A stretch of 64,000 nt of DNA from Candidatus Hydrogenedentota bacterium (GCA_026415215.1 JAOAHN010000026.1:9326-73325), one strand, 5' to 3'; shown: positions 1,449 through 37,155, counted from the first letter of the stretch. The notes: generated by a model from the letters alone, not told the origin. Numbers and translations are program-made.

Positions 1449-2027
1449 ATGAGCAATACATTAAAAGAAGTTCTTGCATCAAATAAAAAATATTCAGAAA
1501 ATTTTACTAAGGGGTCACTTTCTTTACCTCCTGCGAGAAAGTTTGCAATCCTAACTTGCATGGATGCAAGACTTGATCCTGCTAAATTCGCTGGACTAAA
1601 CGAAGGAGATGCACATGTGATAAGAAATGCAGGTGGTCGTGCAAGTGACGACGCAATAAGGTCTCTCGTTATATCTCATAAATTACTTGGAACTCAGGAA
1701 TGGTTTGTCATCCATCACACTGATTGTGGTATGCAACTATTTACGAACGAGATAATGGGTAATCTACTGTTTGAGACACTCGATACATCTGAGTTTGACG
1801 GTAAAAACTGGAGAAATCCCAACGCTAAAGGTGGTTCCATCGAAGGTAAATTTATCAACTGGCTTACATTTGCTAATCTTGAGCAGAGCGTAGTAGATGA
1901 TGTATCAAGACTGAGGTATCACCCGTTAGTACCACCTTACATCCCAATTTATGGCTTTATATATGATGTTAGAACAGGTAAACTAATTGAAGTTCCCAAA
2001 GCAATGGAAATCGGTAAACCCCGCTAA
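1449..2027 (+). CDS. Beta-class carbonic anhydrase
   Basis: Zn-ligand motifs [15 protein letters not shown] and HHTDCG; GFIYDVRTG near the C-terminus; AGGAGG RBS. Confidence 0.93.
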
Positions 2028-2177
2028 ATTTATCAATTACATCTACATCCTAATTTCATCCTTCAAATTAATTCCATCCCTCAGAAAGGGAAGCAGTTAA
2101 TTTTCTATTTATTTCTGAATTGCCCTCCGATGTATAATTTATTACCATATAATTCTTAACTTTGGAGGGTAAAGGCG

Positions 2178-2768
2178 GTGAGCAACTTATTTACAATTAA
2201 GGAAGAGTTAATAGAGCTGAAAGGAAATACTTCTTCTTTAATAGTAGTGGATATGCAGAACGACTTTGCTCATCCTAATGGAGTTTTATTTTGCCCAAAC
2301 TCTACAACAATTATTCAGCCGATAAAAAATCTACTGATTAAAGCAAGGGAGAAGAATGCTAAGATAATTTACACAAAGGATACCCATTATCAAGATGACC
2401 CTGTAGAGTTCCCAATATGGGGGAAACATGTTATTAAAGGTGAGTGGGGATGGGAAATTATAGATGAACTCAAACCCGAAACAAATGACATGATAATAGA
2501 AAAACTCAGATATGACGCATTTTTTGGTACACCACTGGACCATGTTCTTAGAACACATGGAATTAAAAATCTCGTAATTACTGGAACTGTAGCAAACATT
2601 TGTGTGCTCCATACAGTATCCAGTGCAAAACTACATAACTACAATGTAATAGTACCCGTAGATGCTATATCAGCCATAACAGATTTTGACTACCAGCTAT
2701 CTTTACGCCAAATGGATTTTCTCTACAAGGTATTACTGACAAAAGAAAAATTTGTAATCTTTGATTGA
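2178..2768 (+). CDS. Isochorismatase/nicotinamidase-family cysteine hydrolase
   Basis: VVDMQNDF, EKLRYDAF and TGTVANICV (Asp-Lys-Cys triad); GTG start with GGAGG upstream. Confidence 0.88.
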   Translation: MSNLFTIKEELIELKGNTSSLIVVDMQNDFAHPNGVLFCPNSTTIIQPIKNLLIKAREKNAKIIYTKDTHYQDDPVEFPIWGKHVIKGEWGWEIIDELKPETNDMIIEKLRYDAFFGTPLDHVLRTHGIKNLVITGTVANICVLHTVSSAKLHNYNVIVPVDAISAITDFDYQLSLRQMDFLYKVLLTKEKFVIFD

Positions 2769-2812
2769 CATAGACAAAAATAAAGAAAAACGAATCAGGA
2801 CTTAATAATTCT

Positions 2813-3892
2813 ATGAATGAATCAACACCATTCAACCAAAATGATACATTTGAGTTATTTATTATCTTTTCGATTATTAGCTTTGTAATTTCGCTTCCTT
2901 TTATAGGTGGTTGTCTAAAGCCTATGGAGGTTACACCAAAGACTCTCCACTTCAGCGAGGGAGAAGACTTGAAATTCATTGAGATCTACCAAAAACCACT
3001 CTATGACCGTAAAATCGCATTTTCTGTGAAAACTAGCACTCCTTGGATTGAACTAACACCTACCGAGGGAATCTTAGGAAAAGATGACAGAGTAAAAGTT
3101 CAAGTTTACCTAAATAGAAACTTCCCACAAATCAAGAAAGATGAATACCCAACTTATGCCACTGCTGAAATAGTAGTATCTTCATATTTCCAAAATGAAA
3201 AGGTAATTGCAACCACCGCTCCCAATTACTATACTGAGATATTTGAAGGAGATGTAGACCTTTCAAACAAATCCCTTATATTTTCTCCTAACAAGAGCAT
3301 AAGCTTTTACGGACTAGATGTAAAAGAGATTACTGAGTTCCCAAATGAATTTTCCGAAGAAGAAAGAATATCCTTCACTCAAGAGAATATATATGAGTAT
3401 ACCCTTGAAGAGACACAAACCATAAATTTTTATGACAAAGGATACAAAAAACTATACATATCAGGCTACGGGTGGATAGGTATCGGTGAACCTAAAAAAT
3501 CCCCTCAACCCACTGAAGTACTGATTCCTTGTGGCGCCAATTCGAAAGTTCTACAAAATACCCGTAATAAAAATGCAGAGACCTGGGATAGAATGATTTC
3601 CTACCACTTTTCTACTCCTAACATAACAGCGTTTCCCGTGGATGTTTCTAAAGGAGGGAAAGTATATCTAAGAAAACAACAGAATAAAATCGTTATTACA
3701 TATTTAGAAGTGCCCACATCAGCAGACCCACAAAAAAATAACAGTTTTCAGGTAGAGATATACTTTATGGGAAAAATTACGCTTAATTATCTCACTGTAG
3801 ATTCAAGTGCAATCGGCATTGTAGGTTTATCTTATGGCACAGGTAAATTAATAGTTCCAGGGGGATTTGTAGAGTCAGACCTCGTCCAGTAA
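2813..3892 (+). CDS. Putative lipoprotein with BACON-like and nidogen(NIDO)-like beta domains
   Basis: Hydrophobic N-terminus ending FIGGC (lipobox-like). SVKTSTPWIELTPTEG resembles a BACON repeat. ISGYGWIGIG...VITYLEVP...NSFQVEIY...ITLNY resembles NIDO-type domains. Confidence 0.45.
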   Translation: MNESTPFNQNDTFELFIIFSIISFVISLPFIGGCLKPMEVTPKTLHFSEGEDLKFIEIYQKPLYDRKIAFSVKTSTPWIELTPTEGILGKDDRVKVQVYLNRNFPQIKKDEYPTYATAEIVVSSYFQNEKVIATTAPNYYTEIFEGDVDLSNKSLIFSPNKSISFYGLDVKEITEFPNEFSEEERISFTQENIYEYTLEETQTINFYDKGYKKLYISGYGWIGIGEPKKSPQPTEVLIPCGANSKVLQNTRNKNAETWDRMISYHFSTPNITAFPVDVSKGGKVYLRKQQNKIVITYLEVPTSADPQKNNSFQVEIYFMGKITLNYLTVDSSAIGIVGLSYGTGKLIVPGGFVESDLVQ

Positions 3893-31864: not shown

Positions 31865-32848
31865 ATGTCTTACTCTACAGCGTCTAATGAAACAACATTA
31901 CCAACCGTTCAATATAGTAACCGTTCAAAAAGGAAAATGTTGATGAAGCAAAAATCATTAATAATTATTGCAGGATTAGTTATTATATACATCATAGTTA
32001 TCGAGAATTTAATTGTTTTCGCACAAGAATCTACTAAAGTATCTCCTGAGGAACCCCAAAGTATCAATACCCAAATTAAGATAACTGAAGCTCAACCAGA
32101 AAGTGATCAAGAAAAACCACAAATAGAGATACATGTAAAAGACAATAAAACACAACAAACTTCAACAGTGTTTTTCCCATCTAATGAGCGACTATTTAAA
32201 GAACTTCAAGAGATAAAAATTACTCTCCAGCAATTACAACAAACTGTAGACTATCTTGTGAACCATGTAATAGCAGACCTCGAGGAAGAGAATCAACAAC
32301 TTAGAGAATCGCTAAGGCTTTACAATATAGCCCCTTCACAAAATTTAGAAAAAGGCACGACAAAGTTTATTCCTGGTATTCGTCAAACTATGCCAGACAA
32401 AATACTCCATTCAGAAGAGACATCCAGCATAGAGGACAATGCCACTCCCCAGGATGCGAAAATAGAATCCTCCCAAGAGTTCTATTTCAGGGTGATAGAA
32501 GAATGGGGAAGAGATCCGGAAGTTCTAAAACAATTAAATAGTTCCGCACCCACAGTAAAGGGAATCGTAGCGGTAGTTCCACCCAACACACCGAGAGAAA
32601 AATTGGAAGAACTTGCTAAAGAGCTTAGAACAAAATATGAGAAATATGACAATATTAACATTGAGGTATTCGATAACGAAGAATCAGCTCGGGCCTTTGC
32701 AGACAGACATGAGAGAGATCCAGAACACAATGTTCTCAGTGTATCCAGGCATAAAGAAAGTGGGAGAGATTTAATTGTAGTGTATGGACTTCCGATTACT
32801 AATACTGAGTCATCAACTGCAAATCCTTCCAATTCACCAAAAGAATAA
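31865..32848 (+). CDS. Hypothetical exported/membrane-anchored protein with a coiled coil
   Basis: Hydrophobic segment after MLMKQK (true start is probably the later ATG), a heptad-rich segment (LQEIKITLQQLQQTV...LEEENQQLRESL) and a C-terminal globular region. Confidence 0.6.
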   Translation: MSYSTASNETTLPTVQYSNRSKRKMLMKQKSLIIIAGLVIIYIIVIENLIVFAQESTKVSPEEPQSINTQIKITEAQPESDQEKPQIEIHVKDNKTQQTSTVFFPSNERLFKELQEIKITLQQLQQTVDYLVNHVIADLEEENQQLRESLRLYNIAPSQNLEKGTTKFIPGIRQTMPDKILHSEETSSIEDNATPQDAKIESSQEFYFRVIEEWGRDPEVLKQLNSSAPTVKGIVAVVPPNTPREKLEELAKELRTKYEKYDNINIEVFDNEESARAFADRHERDPEHNVLSVSRHKESGRDLIVVYGLPITNTESSTANPSNSPKE

Positions 32849-32907
32849 TGGTAATTTTTCGTAGTTAACATATCTGCACTAAAACAAATTTGAAATCCTC
32901 ATTAATT

Positions 32908-32945
32908 TTTTGGTATTACTATTTATAATTTTAGTAATACCAAAA
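32908..32945 (+). promoter_or_regulatory. Perfect 14-bp inverted repeat operator with NikR-type geometry, overlapping a -10 box
   Basis: TTTTGGTATTACTA-[TTTATAATTT]-TAGTAATACCAAAA. The core is GTATTA (32913-18), 16 nt, TAATAC (32935-40), with TATAAT at 32924-29. It ends 31 nt upstream of ATG 32977 (AAGGAG RBS). Confidence 0.7.
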
Positions 32946-32976
32946 TGATTAACTCATCTAAGAAAGGAGATGTACA

Positions 32977-33945
32977 ATGAAAAAACAAGGTTTTACTCTA
33001 ATCGAGTTATTGGTCGTCATAGCTATCATCGGCATCCTCGCAGCAATACTATTGCCTGCCCTTGCCCGTGCGAGAGAAGCGGCTCGAAGATCGAGTTGTC
33101 AAAATAACCTAAAACAATTCGGCATAGTATTCAAAATGTATGCGAATGAAGCAAAAGGCGAGAGATTCCCACCCTTACAACCATTTGCCAATCCTAACGG
33201 GGCTCCTTTATTTGCATCTCCTGACCCAGAAGGCTTATACCCAGAATATCTTACAGATATGAATATTTCTAAATGCCCCTCTGACACTGGAGTAGATGCA
33301 GGTGGGCAATTCGTTGCGGCAAGAATACCAGATGGCTCTTTAGAGGACCATATCAAAGTGGCAGAAGAAAATGGGGACAGGTTAAGCCAAAGATATTTCA
33401 GAGCTGCCATGTTAGGAAGATCCTACTGGTATCATGGATTTGCTATGATGAATGTAGAAGAGTTCTATGGGATTTGGAATGCCACAGGAACTCTTACTCC
33501 GATTGAAATATACCCTCCCAATACAATAATAGGTGTAAATCCTGTTACCGCTCCGGTTCAAAGAAAAAACTTTGATGATGATCTACCTGTTACCACAAAG
33601 TTACCCTGGACTGCAATTCTCGGCAAAGGATTTGCATCCCTAAACACATGCGCTCGGCTAAGAGAAGGTATAGAGAGATTCGCCATAACCGACATAAATA
33701 ATCCCTCTGCTTCCGCAAAAGCTCAAAGCGAAATAGCTATTATGTTCGATACTTTCGGACATCCTGCTCACTCTGCATCTACTGCAGGAGGTGTGGTTTT
33801 TAATCACATGCCCGGTGGTTGTAATGTTCTATACATGGACGGACATGTCGAATTTATAAGATACCCAACAAAATTCCCGATTATATCTGACCAACAAAAC
33901 AATAATGGCATACCGCGCCAAGTAGGACATTTCGGACTGCAATAG
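32977..33945 (+). CDS. DUF1559 (SBP_bac_10) prepilin-type N-terminal cleavage/methylation protein with H-X9-DG motif
   Basis: KKQG|[42 protein letters not shown]; C-terminal [16 protein letters not shown]. Confidence 0.93.
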
Positions 33946-33948
33946 TAT

Positions 33949-34803
33949 ATGCGTCACTTCTTAACTCTCTATATATATCTCCTCTTGTTTTTAGCAGTGC
34001 TGGGATTAGGCGGGAGGGTCTTTTGTGAGAATTCTCCCGCCATCCCAAATTACAAAGTAGCGGTTGGTTCCTCTTCTATATACTCAGCCGTAAAGGAGTT
34101 TGTAGATGCTAAACACATAACAGACATCATAATCCCTCCTGATTTGTGTCCTGGTCACTTCGATTTAAAACCCGGGGATGTAGAAAAGTTCTTAGAGAGC
34201 GACTTGATTATCTTGCACAACTGGCAAAAAGATCTGCCAGCTATAAAAAGCCTTTTAAGAGTTGCCAATCCTAACTCTGAGAAATTAGCTTGGGTTCCAA
34301 TCCAGGGTAGTTGGATGCTCCCCCAGAATTATGTAAAGGGATTAGAGGCAATAAGTAAGCTTTTGATGGAGAAAAAAATCATATCCAAGGAAACAGGTGA
34401 AGAAATATTGGAAAGAAGAAAGAGGGAAATATTAAGGTTTTCTGAAGATATAAAAAATAAAATATCTGCATTAAAACCTGAAAATATTTATGTGATTTCA
34501 TCTTCCTTCCAAAGTGAATTTCTAAGATGGTTGGGGTTCAATGTCGTTGGAGAATATTCAAGGGCAGAGGAGATCACCTTAAAAACCTGGGGTGACCTAT
34601 TGAAAACCGGAAAGGAAAAAGATGTAAAATTAATAGTTGAGAACCTTCAAAGTGGTGAACTTCAAACTGTTAAGGCTCTGGCGAACGACCTAAATGCCAA
34701 ATCAGTGGTATTGTCTAACTTTCCTATGGCCGAAACAGAAGACAAATCTTGGGAAGATAGTGTCCTTCGTAATGTAAATATTATAATTAATGCATTGAGA
34801 TAA
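33949..34803 (+). CDS. Metal ABC transporter substrate-binding protein (ZnuA/TroA fold)
   Basis: Signal peptide and PPDLCPGHFDLKPGD (the DPH-loop equivalent); precedes the ATPase and permease genes. Confidence 0.8.
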   Translation: MRHFLTLYIYLLLFLAVLGLGGRVFCENSPAIPNYKVAVGSSSIYSAVKEFVDAKHITDIIIPPDLCPGHFDLKPGDVEKFLESDLIILHNWQKDLPAIKSLLRVANPNSEKLAWVPIQGSWMLPQNYVKGLEAISKLLMEKKIISKETGEEILERRKREILRFSEDIKNKISALKPENIYVISSSFQSEFLRWLGFNVVGEYSRAEEITLKTWGDLLKTGKEKDVKLIVENLQSGELQTVKALANDLNAKSVVLSNFPMAETEDKSWEDSVLRNVNIIINALR

Positions 34804-34857: not shown

Positions 34858-35622
34858 GTGGACTCTCCAATAATAGAAATAAAGGATTTAGTAACTACAT
34901 ACTACGGGAATACTGTAATAAAAGGACTTTCTACTAACTTTTATCACAACCAATTTACGGTAATTCTGGGTCCTAACGGTTCTGGGAAAACTACACTATT
35001 GAAATCAATTTTAGGGCTATGCAATATAGCAAGTGGAGAAGTCAAAGTATTTGGAGAAAAAGTCCATAAATGGAAATATAAAATAAGAAGAAGAATAGCG
35101 TATGTATCTCAAGTAGAAAATATTGATCCTCGTTTACCAATCACAATAGAGGAAAGTGTATTGTTAGGGCGAGCTGGTGTAAGAGGTTTAGGAAAACCCT
35201 ATACCAAGAACGATAGAGAATTAGTTACCCAAATACTTGAAAGATTGGGCATAGCACACCTGAGAGAAAAGCCTATTGGAAAAGTCTCCGGAGGAGAGAG
35301 ACAAAAAGCAAGTATAGCAAGAGCCCTTGTTCAGGAAGCTCCCATAATTTTGATGGACGAACCAACAGCATCTTTAGACCCTAACGCTCAGCTTGAGATA
35401 CTATCAATAATTAATAACTTGAAAGAACTCCATAAAAATACAACTATATATGTAACCCATGAATTAGCAGAACTCCCAGAAAAGTGTGACAGAATAATCA
35501 TGTTAAAAGATGGAAACATATGGAGAGATGGTAACCCAGAGGAACTTCTCAATGAAGATTTACTCTTGGAGCTATATGGAGGCTCTGATTTCTGCTGTCG
35601 AGATAGGTTAAAGCATCATTAA
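34858..35622 (+). CDS. Metal ABC transporter ATP-binding protein (ZnuC-like)
   Basis: GPNGSGKT, VSGGERQK, LMDEPT and H-loop VTHE; GTG start. Confidence 0.92.
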   Translation: MDSPIIEIKDLVTTYYGNTVIKGLSTNFYHNQFTVILGPNGSGKTTLLKSILGLCNIASGEVKVFGEKVHKWKYKIRRRIAYVSQVENIDPRLPITIEESVLLGRAGVRGLGKPYTKNDRELVTQILERLGIAHLREKPIGKVSGGERQKASIARALVQEAPIILMDEPTASLDPNAQLEILSIINNLKELHKNTTIYVTHELAELPEKCDRIIMLKDGNIWRDGNPEELLNEDLLLELYGGSDFCCRDRLKHH

Positions 35623-35651: not shown

Positions 35652-36485
35652 GTGTTTAGTTTCTTAGAAATACCAGGGTATCTAATAAAACCATTAACTG
35701 CAGGTTTTTTAACAGGGATTTCCTGCAGTCTTGTGGGTGTATTTATAGTAACTACTCATTTATCTTTCTTAGGTATATGTATTGCTCATTCGGCATTTAC
35801 CGGAGCACTTTTAGGTATCTGGCTAAACTTTAATCCTACCTTAGGCGCTTTAATTTTCAGTCTGATTGCTTCAGCAATAGTCGGTCCCCTTGCAGACAGA
35901 GGTGAACTAAGTCCAGATACTTCTACGGGGATTGTATTTTCTACTATGTTAGGGCTCGCCTTTCTTATAATCGGACTAATCCCAGGTTCTAAGTCATCTG
36001 CTATGAATCTTTTCTGGGGAAATATACTTACTGTCTCATATACAGATATATTACTCCTTGCGATAGTAACAATTTTCCTAATAGGAATTTTTACATTCCT
36101 ATATAAAGAGATTCAGGCAGTCCTATGTCATAGAAATATAGCAATTGCAGTAGGAATTCCATCAGCCTTAATCTTTTACCTAATGCTCATAGCAACTGGT
36201 GTATCGATTGCGGTTTCTCTCCAAACAGTTGGAGGGCTATTAATTTATAGTCTACTTCTCAATCCCTCCGCTTCTGCTTACCAACTCACTTATAAATTCA
36301 AGACCATGATTTTATTATCTATATCATTTGGGGTCATGTCTTGCTGGGGAGGTATATGGGTATCCTACAAATTTAACTTACCAACTGGGGCTTGCATTAT
36401 TCTCACCTCTTCTATCATATTCATATTGTGTTCTATATTCTCTCCTAAAAAAGATAAGAAATTTAAGGATCAAAATAATGATTGA
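35652..36485 (+). CDS. Metal ABC transporter permease (ZnuB/ABC-3 family)
   Basis: SLVGVFIV...IAHSAFTG, LFWGNILTV and VGGLLIYSLLLNP; about 8 TM segments. Confidence 0.92.
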   Translation: MFSFLEIPGYLIKPLTAGFLTGISCSLVGVFIVTTHLSFLGICIAHSAFTGALLGIWLNFNPTLGALIFSLIASAIVGPLADRGELSPDTSTGIVFSTMLGLAFLIIGLIPGSKSSAMNLFWGNILTVSYTDILLLAIVTIFLIGIFTFLYKEIQAVLCHRNIAIAVGIPSALIFYLMLIATGVSIAVSLQTVGGLLIYSLLLNPSASAYQLTYKFKTMILLSISFGVMSCWGGIWVSYKFNLPTGACIILTSSIIFILCSIFSPKKDKKFKDQNND

Positions 36486-37155
36486 TGAAAAATCTAACAA
36501 TAGAGTGGATTTTAATCATCACCAATTAGGAATTATTGATTTCTTTGACAAACATGCTAACCACTGGGAAAACTATACATCCACGGACATTATATCAAGA
36601 GCTGAGAAATTATTGGACCTTGTGACAATTAATACAGGAGATACAGTCTTAGATGTAGGTTGTGGAATAGGGGTTCTTATACCATACTTAACCAAACGGA
36701 TAGGAGAGAAAGGTGTACTTATTGAAGTTGATATATCAAGCAAGATGCTCCAAGTAGGAATGAAAAAAACGCATAGGGAAAACATATACTGGTTAACTGC
36801 GGATGGGCATTTCCTACCGCTAAAGACTGAATCCACAAATGTAGTTATATGTTACGCAGTTTTTCCCCACTTCACAAATAAGGATATAGCAATAAAAGAG
36901 ATATCTCGAGTGTTAAAGCCAGGTGGAATCTTGGGGATTTGCCATTCTCACTCGAGTATTGAAATAAACAAAATTCACAAGAATATAGGTGGCATAGTAG
37001 AAAATCATTGCATACCTGAAATCTCAAAGATTAAAAATTGGTGTGAAAATTCCGGAATGGAAATATCTCATTACCAAGATGGAGAAAACGGTTATCTACT
37101 AATAGCAGTAAAGAAACACCCTTTGGAATTTTTAGAGCCAAATACCGAATCTTAG
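36478..37155 (+). CDS. Class I SAM-dependent methyltransferase
   Basis: VLDVGCGIG, DISSKML, DGHFLPL and VLKPGG. ATG 36478 overlaps the permease stop; the track start at 36328 lies inside the permease. Confidence 0.88.
   Translation: MIDEKSNNRVDFNHHQLGIIDFFDKHANHWENYTSTDIISRAEKLLDLVTINTGDTVLDVGCGIGVLIPYLTKRIGEKGVLIEVDISSKMLQVGMKKTHRENIYWLTADGHFLPLKTESTNVVICYAVFPHFTNKDIAIKEISRVLKPGGILGICHSHSSIEINKIHKNIGGIVENHCIPEISKIKNWCENSGMEISHYQDGENGYLLIAVKKHPLEFLEPNTES

What the first reader, a model, noticed from the sequence alone, without database searches (positions are those of the whole stretch)
32908..32945. Perfect inverted repeat with NikR-operator geometry upstream of the DUF1559-ABC operon
Seen: 14-bp perfect arms around a 10-nt spacer containing TATAAT, with core GTATTA-N16-TAATAC. 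Established: the E. coli NikR operator is GTATGA-N16-TCATAC and overlaps the -10 of the nickel-uptake operon. Inference: this is a Ni-responsive repressor site, so the downstream ZnuABC-like system imports nickel (or cobalt) rather than zinc. That would fit the Ni-dependent LarA enzyme about 7 kb downstream.
Basis: partly seen in the sequence, partly recalled or inferred. Interest (0 to 1): 0.72.

Follow-up and report, generated by a model that had tools for sequence, protein, structure and literature searches.

The report
Nickel-repressor operator on a mis-annotated metal importer
The palindrome is very probably the binding site of the nickel sensor NikR, placed on the promoter of an importer that databases call a zinc transporter but that is probably this bacterium's nickel importer.

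Summary
Window 32908-32945 is a perfect 14-10-14 inverted repeat, the only one with arms this long in the window.

Its conserved core is GTATTAC-N14-GTAATAC (32913-32940). This has the 7-N13/14-7 layout of published NikR boxes and differs from the delta-proteobacterial box by one symmetric base.

- **Regulator:** the genome (Candidatus Hydrogenedens) has one nikR with all four nickel ligands. I found no Fur/Zur, NiCoT, NikM/CbiM or HupE/UreJ.
- **Second copy:** the 18-base core occurs twice. The other copy lies upstream of the hoxEFUYH [NiFe]-hydrogenase operon.
- **Conservation:** all 10 genomes of the genus keep both arms unchanged at these two loci while the spacer varies.
- **Promoter:** the left arm is the extended -10 (TGGTATTAC), with a -35 at a fixed distance in 9 of 9 genomes.
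- **Sister families:** the same box precedes nikR-nikM, nikM-nikL and nikK-nikM operons. nikR lies inside or beside orthologous DUF1559-ZnuABC operons in three genomes.
- **Distribution:** across 61 genomes this importer and NikM never co-occur (25, 25, 0), and 39 of 40 nikR-positive genomes have exactly one of them.

Nickel-dependent binding and nickel transport remain untested.

The parts
32908..32945 (.).
32913..32919 (+). Left NikR half-site GTATTAC. Bases 2-7 are also the -10 hexamer TATTAC.
   Evidence: Invariant in 16 of 16 sites of the genus
32934..32940 (+). Right NikR half-site GTAATAC
   Evidence: Invariant in the genus and nearly invariant in other families of the order
32890..32895 (+). 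-35-like hexamer TTGAAA (TTGACA in the 8 relatives)
   Evidence: It starts exactly 23 nt upstream of the first G of the box in 9 of 9 genomes
32911..32919 (+). Extended -10 element TGGTATTAC, 18 nt after the -35
   Evidence: The simple sigma-70 scan does not call it because the hexamer ends in C.
32963..32969 (+). Ribosome-binding site AAAGGAG, 7 nt before the ATG
32977..33945 (+). First gene: DUF1559 / H-X9-DG prepilin-type protein, a NikR-linked ortholog group
   Evidence: Pfam PF07596 and PF07963 and TIGR04294. It is 76-84% identical within the genus and 50-70% across families. The best paralog in this genome is at most 47% identical.
33949..34803 (+). Divergent ZnuA-fold binding protein with an invariant CPGH motif; candidate nickel-binding protein
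   Evidence: PF01297 scores only 56.7 bits and there is no NCBIfam hit. Ligands are remodelled. Public name is 'zinc ABC transporter substrate-binding protein'.
34858..35622 (+). ABC ATPase
   Evidence: PF00005
35652..36485 (+). ABC-3 family permease
   Evidence: PF00950, 192.6 bits
36478..37155 (+). SAM-dependent methyltransferase. The probable ATG at 36478 overlaps the permease stop. It is the last gene of the operon; role unknown.
   Evidence: PF08241 and PF13649. Syntenic in the genus. A homolog lies next to the same importer in Desulfofundulus.

Best explanation
**What it is.** The element is a NikR operator. One NikR tetramer would place its two ribbon-helix-helix dimers on the half-sites GTATTAC (32913-32919) and GTAATAC (32934-32940). 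Their centres lie 21 bp, about two helical turns, apart.

**How it would work.** The left half-site coincides with the extended -10 (TGGTATTAC) of the promoter, whose -35 (TTGAAA) lies 18 nt upstream. When nickel fills the H/HxH/C sites of NikR, the protein binds and keeps RNA polymerase off the promoter. This shuts down a five-gene operon: DUF1559 pseudopilin-like protein, CPGH-type ZnuA-fold binding protein, ABC ATPase, ABC-3 permease and a methyltransferase.

**What the operon does.** It is most likely the high-affinity nickel importer of Candidatus Hydrogenedens. It would take the place that NikMNQO holds in sister lineages.

**The second box.** An identical box lies about 190-205 nt upstream of hoxEFUYH and ties the NAD-linked [NiFe]-hydrogenase to the same sensor. 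Whether NikR represses or activates there is open.

**Shown:** the sequence, its conservation, the composition of the regulon, the gene context and the co-occurrence pattern.

**Inferred:** NikR as the binder, repression by nickel, and nickel as the transported substrate.
For: **Geometry and sequence**
- The 7-N14-7 layout spans 28 bp. It differs by one symmetric transition from the published delta-proteobacterial NikR box GTGTTAC-N13/14-GTAACAC and has the same architecture as the enterobacterial GTATGAT-N13/14-ATCATAC (PMC545781).

**Regulator**
- There is a single nikR at G000 C75:606-1034. It scores 91 bits on PF08753 and 149.9 on NF003381 (cut-off 105). Its best solved relative is P. horikoshii NikR (E 1.7e-33), and all four high-affinity nickel ligands align.

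**Regulon in this genome**
- The 18-nt core occurs twice, here and at C63:1375-1402. The second copy lies between hoxEF and ybaB. The hox operon (HoxEF, U, Y, H) is confirmed in a relative and continues on contig C85 of this genome.

**Footprint in relatives**
- The box is in 10 of 10 genomes of the genus and gives no hits with the reversed control pattern.
- Arms are 100% conserved. Spacer conservation is 0.79 and 0.69 at the two loci. Neighbouring proteins are only about 50% identical.
- The -35 sits at a fixed 23 nt from the box in 9 of 9 genomes.

**Rest of the order**
- Perfect GTAWTAC-N13/14-GTAWTAC boxes lie directly upstream of nikR-nikM (G036), nikM-PDGLE (G013), DUF4198-nikM (G035) and nikM (G030).
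- Near-perfect boxes lie upstream of DUF1559-ZnuABC in at least five families.

**Gene context**
- In G047 the order is box, DUF1559, nikR, znuA, znuC, znuB. In G040 and G058 nikR is transcribed divergently from the operon.

**Distribution across 61 genomes**
- CPGH-ZnuA is in 25, NikM/CbiM in 25, both in 0 (Fisher p = 7e-9).
- 24 of 25 CPGH-ZnuA genomes have nikR, against 16 of 36 others (p = 2e-5).
- 39 of 40 nikR-positive genomes have exactly one of the two importers.

**Own genome**
- No NiCoT, CbiM/NikM, HupE/UreJ or Fur/Zur was found.
- A separate canonical ZnuA has three His and a His-rich loop.
- Nickel demand comes from hox and from LarC with a LarA homolog.

**Another phylum**
- The nickel chaperone gene cooT directly precedes the same importer type in 12 Chloroflexota loci.
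Against: - There is no binding, expression or transport data.
- The binding protein keeps only one canonical metal ligand position (His70, inside CPGH). Its substrate cannot be read from the sequence. It could be cobalt, a nickel chelate or something else.
- The strict sigma-70 scan does not call the proposed promoter.
- At hox the box is about 130-140 nt upstream of the best proximal promoter-like site. The mode of control there is unclear, and ybaB-fmt on the other side cannot be excluded as the target.
- In the 80 best loci of this importer family across all phyla, no nikR lay within 3.5 kb. I found no NikR-type box in the Chloroflexota or Bacillota loci.
- I could not test for a DtxR/MntR-family regulator in the genome.
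- The co-occurrence counts are not corrected for phylogeny.
Confidence: 0.87

Rival explanations
1. The site is a NikR operator, but the transporter imports cobalt, a mixed Ni/Co pool or a metal-chelate complex, not free nickel.
For: - Three of the four canonical ligand positions are replaced, leaving Cys67 and His70 as the invariant pair.
- A conserved methyltransferase travels with the importer, and in Moorella so do DUF364 'heavy-metal chelation' and Peripla_BP_2 genes. This hints at a modified or chelated substrate.
- The family is common in Dehalococcoidia, which depend on corrinoids.
Against: - In characterised systems NikR regulons consist of nickel-specific genes (my knowledge and PMC545781).
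- No cobalamin riboswitch lies upstream in 19 loci.
- The importer is mutually exclusive with NikR-boxed nikM operons.
- cooT, a nickel chaperone gene, is its neighbour in Chloroflexota.
Confidence: 0.2
2. The palindrome is the operator of a different regulator, for example a DtxR/MntR-type protein or the small RHH-Cys4 protein encoded beside the canonical znuA. In that case the operon would respond to zinc or manganese.
For: - The importer belongs to the Zn/Mn ABC-3 family.
- A second ribbon-helix-helix protein, whose helix (NRSEFIRNAILHAL) resembles NikR's, is encoded at C45:6883-7215.
- The DtxR family was not tested.
Against: - The same box precedes nikR itself and canonical nikM operons in sister families, and the NiFe-hydrogenase operon here.
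- nikR lies inside the orthologous operon in G047.
- The RHH-Cys4 gene sits next to the canonical, His-rich ZnuA.
- No Fur/Zur was found.
Confidence: 0.05
3. The repeat acts as an RNA hairpin, either a terminator of the upstream gene (31865-32848) or a 5'-leader structure, and not as a protein-binding site.
For: As RNA it folds to -17.6 kcal/mol with z = -7.3. It lies 60 nt after the stop of the upstream gene.
Against: - There is no T-run on either strand and no terminator call.
- The stem is AT-rich.
- In 16 sites the arms are invariant in sequence, with no compensatory changes, while the loop varies.
- In other families the half-sites also occur in direct or swapped arrangement, which cannot pair.
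- With the conserved -35/-10, transcription would start inside the repeat.
Confidence: 0.02

Closest known systems
Delta-proteobacterial NikR boxes upstream of nik(MN)QO (Geobacter, Desulfovibrio; Rodionov et al. 2004, PMC545781)
   Same: - The 7-N13/14-7 inverted repeat. The half-site GTGTTAC differs from GTATTAC here by one base.
- Swapped half-site orientation also occurs there (D. psychrophila) and here (G050).
- A hydrogenase operon was also predicted in that regulon.
   Different: - Position 3 of the half-site is A, not G.
- The regulated importer in this genus is an ABC-3/ZnuA-type system headed by a DUF1559 gene, not an ECF-type NikMNQO.
E. coli NikR and the nikABCDE operator (GTATGA-N16-TCATAC)
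   Same: - A 28-bp dyad that overlaps the core promoter of the nickel-uptake operon.
- An RHH tetramer with an H, HxH, C nickel site.
- Repression when nickel is sufficient (the function is inferred here).
   Different: - The inner half-site bases differ (TTAC against TGAT).
- This NikR is closer to the P. horikoshii and H. pylori proteins (E 1e-33 and 1e-28) than to the E. coli protein (E 5e-18).
- nikR is not linked to the operon in this genome.
ZnuABC / TroABCD / MntABC cluster A-I metal importers
   Same: ZnuA-fold binding protein, ABC-3 permease and ATPase in one operon.
   Different: - Only the first His ligand is kept, within an invariant CPGH. The other canonical positions read Gly/Ser/Asn, Gln and Asn.
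- No Zur was found.
- The operon is NikR-boxed.
- A true His-rich ZnuA is encoded elsewhere in the genome.
H. pylori NikR regulon (ureA, nixA, fecA3, frpB4, ceuE)
   Same: One NikR controls importers, outer-envelope uptake components and a nickel enzyme operon. Sites far upstream of a promoter occur there, as at hox here.
   Different: The operator consensus and the gene families differ. Here a pilin-like DUF1559 protein, and in one species an Alginate_exp porin, stand where H. pylori has TonB-dependent receptors.

Membership tests
NikR operator (NikR box) | Two 6-7-bp half-sites in dyad symmetry, 13-16 bp apart, 27-28 bp in total | tested here: met
   GTATTAC-N14-GTAATAC, 28 bp. Layout compared with PMC545781.
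NikR operator (NikR box) | A nikR gene in the same genome with an RHH domain and intact high-affinity nickel ligands | tested here: met
   One copy at C75:606-1034. PF08753 scores 91 bits and NF003381 149.9 against a cut-off of 105. H, HxH and C align with 2bj1 and 2ca9.
NikR operator (NikR box) | Located at promoters of nickel-uptake or nickel-enzyme genes | tested here: met
   The second copy is at hoxEFUYH. The same box precedes nikR-nikM, nikM-nikL and nikK-nikM in sister families. In this window it overlaps the -10.
NikR operator (NikR box) | Conserved at orthologous promoters while the flanks and spacer drift | tested here: met
   10 of 10 genomes. Arm conservation is 1.00 against 0.69-0.79 for the spacer.
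NikR operator (NikR box) | Nickel-dependent binding of NikR to the site (EMSA or footprint) | not testable with these tools
   This needs purified protein.
ZnuABC-type zinc importer (the public annotation) | Binding protein with three His ligands, usually with a His-rich loop | tested here: not met
   Only His70 is kept. The second and third positions are Gly/Ser and Gln. A separate canonical ZnuA with all these features lies at C45:7229-8122.
ZnuABC-type zinc importer (the public annotation) | Control by Zur (Fur family) | tested here: not met
   PF01475 gave no hit in the 94%-complete genome.
Cluster A-I / ABC-3 metal ABC importers (the broad fold family) | ZnuA-fold binding protein, ABC-3 permease and ATPase | tested here: met
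   PF01297, PF00950 and PF00005.
Known nickel importers (NikMNQO, NiCoT, HupE/UreJ) | Homology to CbiM/NikM, NicO or HupE_UreJ | tested here: not met
   No PF01891, PF03824 or PF04955 anywhere in the genome. NikABCDE (Opp-type) was not tested.
Intrinsic terminator | GC-rich stem followed by a T-run | tested here: not met
   No terminator call. The stem is AT-rich and there is no T-run.

The most novel reading that the evidence does not exclude
The CPGH-type ZnuA/ABC-3 system may be an unrecognised, widespread family of nickel importers. I found 438 loci among GTDB species representatives. They include Hydrogenedentota, Dehalococcoidia and acetogenic or sulfate-reducing Bacillota such as Moorella thermoacetica and Desulfofundulus. 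In Hydrogenedentota the system would replace NikMNQO.

In that phylum it would work together with a dedicated DUF1559 pilin-like protein that captures or conducts nickel through the cell envelope. That would be the first functional role assigned to a member of this very large family.
Probability: 0.45. Interest if true: 0.78.

Novelty: new variant of a known kind. Interest (0 to 1): 0.62.

Why it matters
The operator itself is an ordinary kind of element: a new NikR box in a phylum where, as far as I could find, none has been described. What it points to matters more.

- **Annotation.** A transporter family that databases annotate as zinc importers is probably a nickel importer. This would fill a gap: a 2009 survey found no known Ni/Co transporter in the three Planctomycetes genomes it examined (PMC2667541). 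The family also occurs in acetogens and Dehalococcoidia that depend on nickel enzymes.
- **Metal selectivity.** The binding site keeps one of the four canonical ligand positions and has an invariant Cys-Pro-Gly-His. It is a compact test case for how the ZnuA fold changes metal selectivity.
- **DUF1559.** A DUF1559/H-X9-DG pilin-like gene is the first gene behind the NikR box in many lineages, even where the ABC transporter is absent. This gives a concrete, testable handle on a very large protein family of unknown function.

My full-text searches found no paper linking DUF1559 to nickel or NikR to ZnuA-type importers.

Tried and rejected
- **Terminator or RNA hairpin.** Rejected. There is no T-run and no compensatory changes, and non-pairing half-site arrangements occur in relatives.
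- **Third genomic match.** GTATTA-N16-TAATAC at C4:2369-2396 is a GC-clamped terminator-like hairpin after a gene, not a box.
- **Spacer TATAAT as the -10.** Not conserved in relatives. The fixed -35 points to the left arm instead.
- **Simple sigma-70 scan.** It did not call the proposed promoter. It proposed TTAACT-18-TACAAT, which overlaps the start codon, and I disregard that.
- **Riboswitches.** None found upstream of the importer in 19 loci from other phyla (one search failed on size).
- **nikR near the importer across phyla.** No nikR within 3.5 kb in the 80 best loci of the family.
- **NikR-type boxes in Chloroflexota and Bacillota loci.** None found. A different palindrome, TTGCAATTAATTGCA, is enriched there instead.
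- **Porin paralog in this genome.** The closest paralog of the boxed G005 porin follows an ammonium transporter gene and has no box.
- **Solved structures.** The search was almost blind to the binding protein: one hit, E 4.5e-4. I did not run structure prediction because the tools return no coordinates for inspecting a metal site.

Full report
**1. Observation**

Window 32908-32921 (TTTTGGTATTACTA) and 32932-32945 (TAGTAATACCAAAA) are perfectly complementary 14-nt arms around the spacer TTTATAATTT. This is the only perfect inverted repeat with arms of at least 12 nt and a spacer of 3-20 nt in the window. Twenty Markov-1 simulations gave 0-1 per window.

**2. Surroundings**

The repeat lies 60 nt after the stop of an unannotated 327-aa gene and 32 nt before the ATG at 32977. 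A tight gene string follows:
- a DUF1559/prepilin-type protein (32977-33945);
- a weakly scoring ZnuA-fold binding protein (33949-34803; PF01297, 56.7 bits);
- an ABC ATPase (34858-35622);
- an ABC-3 permease (35652-36485);
- a SAM methyltransferase whose likely ATG at 36478 overlaps the permease stop.

After a 114-nt gap come genes for an SDR, a HAD hydrolase, a PdxB-like dehydrogenase, a LarA-like protein and a PFK. The whole string is syntenic in the genus.

**3. Organism**

Record titles of contigs that match the relatives by length name Candidatus Hydrogenedens, of the Hydrogenedentota. Examples are AWNW01000023.1 (45,534 bp, matching G002:C23) and JBMFRC010000002.1 (279,092 bp, matching G001:C2).

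**4. Regulator**

- The 3.33-Mb, 94%-complete assembly holds one NikR at C75:606-1034. It passes the NCBIfam NikR equivalog model (149.9 bits against a cut-off of 105).
- It aligns best with P. horikoshii NikR (E 1.7e-33) and H. pylori NikR.
- The distal His, the HxH pair and the Cys of the square-planar nickel site are all conserved.
- No Fur/Zur-family protein was found.

**5. Motif in the genome**

GTATTACTA-N10-TAGTAATAC occurs exactly twice with no mismatch and never with one mismatch. The second copy, C63:1375-1402, lies between ybaB-fmt and a HoxEF-type gene cut by the contig end. In a relative that operon is HoxEF, HoxU, HoxY, HoxH (PF00374), a group-3d-like NAD-linked [NiFe]-hydrogenase. 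In this genome the rest of the operon is on contig C85. A weaker 6-N16-6 match on C4 is a GC-clamped hairpin after a gene and is unrelated.

**6. Conservation**

- GTATTAC-N14-GTAATAC is present in 10 of 10 genomes of the genus, one or two copies each. It is absent from 51 genomes of other genera of the order and gives no hits with the reversed control pattern.
- Nine sites lie upstream of the DUF1559-ZnuA operon and seven in the hox/ybaB intergenic region.
- One further site, in G005, lies in front of an Alginate_exp porin.
- Neighbouring proteins are only about 50% identical. The arms are nevertheless invariant, while the spacer varies (top-base frequency 0.79 and 0.69). This is the footprint of a protein-binding site.

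**7. Promoter**

In 9 of 9 genus promoters a TTGA(C/A)A hexamer begins exactly 23 nt before the first G of the box. This gives:
- a -35 hexamer (32890-32895 here);
- an 18-nt spacer;
- an extended -10, TGG+TATTAC (32911-32919).

The left half-site is therefore the -10 element, so a bound protein would exclude RNA polymerase. The simple consensus scan does not call this promoter because the hexamer ends in C.

**8. Comparison with known NikR boxes**

Rodionov et al. 2004 (PMC545781) give GTATGAT-N13/14-ATCATAC for enterobacteria and GTGTTAC-N13/14-GTAACAC for delta-proteobacteria. They also report reversed half-sites in D. psychrophila and a hydrogenase operon in the predicted regulon. The box here has the same architecture and differs from the delta-proteobacterial box by one symmetric transition. 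The half-site GTAWTAC is itself nearly palindromic. This explains the swapped arms in G050 and the direct arrangement in G047 and L084.

**9. The rest of the order**

Perfect GTAWTAC-N13/14-GTAWTAC boxes occur in other families. Their contexts are as follows.

| Genome | Genes directly behind the box |
|---|---|
| G036 | nikR, nikM |
| G013 | nikM, PDGLE (nikL), a third gene I read as cbiQ by eye (not scanned against Pfam) |
| G035 | DUF4198 (nikK), nikM |
| G030 | nikM |
| G012, G016, G030 | DUF1559, then a secreted protein (FmdE domain in G016 and G030; His-rich in G012) |
| G039 | a DUF1559 gene |

The box therefore marks canonical nickel-uptake operons and nikR itself. This identifies it as the NikR box of the order.

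Orthologous DUF1559-ZnuA-ZnuC-ZnuB modules exist in at least five families. They carry tgGTATTAT-N14-GTAATAC upstream: the right arm is nearly invariant and the left arm looks like a -10. In G047 nikR sits inside the operon, in the order DUF1559, nikR, znuA, znuC, znuB. In G040 and G058 nikR is the divergent neighbour.

**10. Distribution**

| Set (61 genomes of the order) | Count |
|---|---|
| With CPGH-type ZnuA | 25 |
| With NikM/CbiM | 25 |
| With both | 0 (Fisher p = 7e-9) |
| CPGH-ZnuA genomes that have nikR | 24 of 25 |
| Other genomes that have nikR | 16 of 36 (p = 2e-5) |
| nikR-positive genomes with exactly one of the two importers | 39 of 40 |

Switches between the two importers occur within families and even within one genus. 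This is the pattern expected when one importer displaces another that is unrelated in sequence. The tests are not corrected for phylogeny.

**11. The importer**

- This genome has no NiCoT, NikM/CbiM or HupE/UreJ.
- It needs nickel for Hox and for LarC with a LarA homolog.
- A separate canonical ZnuA (181 bits, three His, His-rich loop) is on C45.
- The window's binding protein has no NCBIfam hit and almost no similarity to solved structures.
- It keeps only the first canonical ligand His, inside an invariant C67-P-G-H70. The other positions are replaced.
- Public records call it a zinc-binding protein.
- The family is large, with 438 loci among GTDB representatives, in Hydrogenedentota, Chloroflexota, Bacillota acetogens and sulfate reducers. 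DUF1559 accompanies it only in Hydrogenedentota.
- In 12 Chloroflexota loci the gene directly upstream is cooT, an accessory gene for nickel insertion into CO dehydrogenase (PMC11247825).

**12. Mechanism, and how sure I am**

- **NikR operator that overlaps the -10 and gives nickel-dependent repression:** about 0.87. This rests on comparative evidence only.
- **Nickel as the transported metal:** about 0.65-0.7.
- **Control at hox:** the box sits a conserved 189-204 nt upstream of hoxEF and well upstream of the best proximal promoter-like site. The sign and mechanism of control are open, and ybaB cannot be excluded as the target.

**13. Rivals**

- **RNA hairpin or terminator:** rejected.
- **Another regulator:** unlikely, given sections 9 and 10. 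The DtxR family was not searched.
- **Cobalt or a chelate as substrate:** this remains possible.

**14. Novelty**

My full-text searches found nothing that links DUF1559 to nickel or NikR to ZnuA-type importers. A 2024 survey of nickel homeostasis genes does not mention Znu or TroA. A 2009 survey found no known Ni/Co transporter in the three Planctomycetes genomes it examined. Earlier notes of this scan describe NikR-DUF1559 and NikR-TroA-type links in other genomes. I treated them as leads only.

Noticed in passing
G000 contig C45:6883-7215, outside the window, directly upstream of the canonical znuA at C45:7229-8122: A 110-aa protein has a ribbon-helix-helix N-terminus (NRSEFIRNAILHAL, like NikR) and a Cys-rich tail (CPICSGTG...CSKCNYRHLSC). 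It heads the true zinc-type znuA operon in a genome where no Fur/Zur was found. It is a candidate non-Fur zinc sensor, and earlier scan notes describe the same family.
   Followed up: partly
window 36478-37155; also L113:2666-3277 (Desulfofundulus thermobenzoicus): A SAM methyltransferase appears translationally coupled to the permease (best NCBIfam hit is the DVU_1556 family, below cut-off). It is conserved in the operon across the genus. A homolog sits next to the same importer type in a Bacillota genome. I cannot explain its role in a metal-uptake operon.
   Followed up: partly
L102, L103, L116, L119, L122, L124-L126, L129, L131, L141, L147 (Chloroflexota), about 150-300 nt upstream of the ZnuA-like gene: A 61-64-aa CooT gene (PF10133, N-terminal MC motif) directly precedes the CPGH-ZnuABC operon. 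Between cooT and znuA lies a different palindrome (TTGCAATTAATTGCA-like, enriched in 15 of 35 loci), presumably the operator of another regulator.
   Followed up: partly
L017:1501-1528 and 1539-3026 (G005:C215): In one Hydrogenedens species a third NikR box (GTATTACTAAAATGTTAATTGGTAATAC) lies about 10-30 nt before an Alginate_exp-type outer-membrane porin gene. This may be a nickel-regulated outer-membrane channel. The closest paralog in G000 follows an ammonium transporter gene and has no box.
   Followed up: partly
L163, L164, L165 (G016:C112, G012:C14, G030:C10): In three other families the NikR box is followed by a DUF1559 gene and then a secreted protein, with no ABC transporter. The secreted protein carries an FmdE domain in G016 and G030. 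In G012 it begins with a His-rich stretch (HPHHSHNDGQGHDHG) and has no Pfam hit.
   Followed up: partly
ZnuA-like orthologs in L035-L042, compared with window 33949-34803: Eight relatives carry a C-terminal CP(T/S/D)C motif (SGFPYxCPxCNSWE). The window's protein reads SNFPMAETEDKSWE at the same place, so this species has lost a possible thiol pair.
   Followed up: no
L003:1186-1375 and the orthologous hox leaders in L005, L007, L011, L014, L016: The roughly 200 nt between the NikR box and hoxEF hold strongly conserved blocks (for example CCTCAATTTATGCATGTGAAAACAT..TTTGCAAAATAATTGAAA) and a proximal promoter-like site (TTGAAA-17-TAAAGT/TATAGT). Further regulators or a structured leader are likely.
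   Followed up: no
L076 and L078 (CAZZMK010000034.1, CAZJTZ010000038.1) and similar records: Several public MAG records titled 'uncultured Nitrospirales/Nitrospiraceae bacterium' carry contigs that correspond to Hydrogenedens-genus genomes of the GTDB set. For example the 24,799-bp contig matches G006:C38. Their submitted taxonomy labels look wrong.
   Followed up: no
L148:1229-3150 (Moorella thermoacetica DSM 21394): Upstream of the CPGH-ZnuABC genes lie a DUF4213/DUF364 'putative heavy-metal chelation' protein and a Peripla_BP_2 binding protein. This hints that the substrate may be handled as a chelate in acetogens.
   Followed up: no
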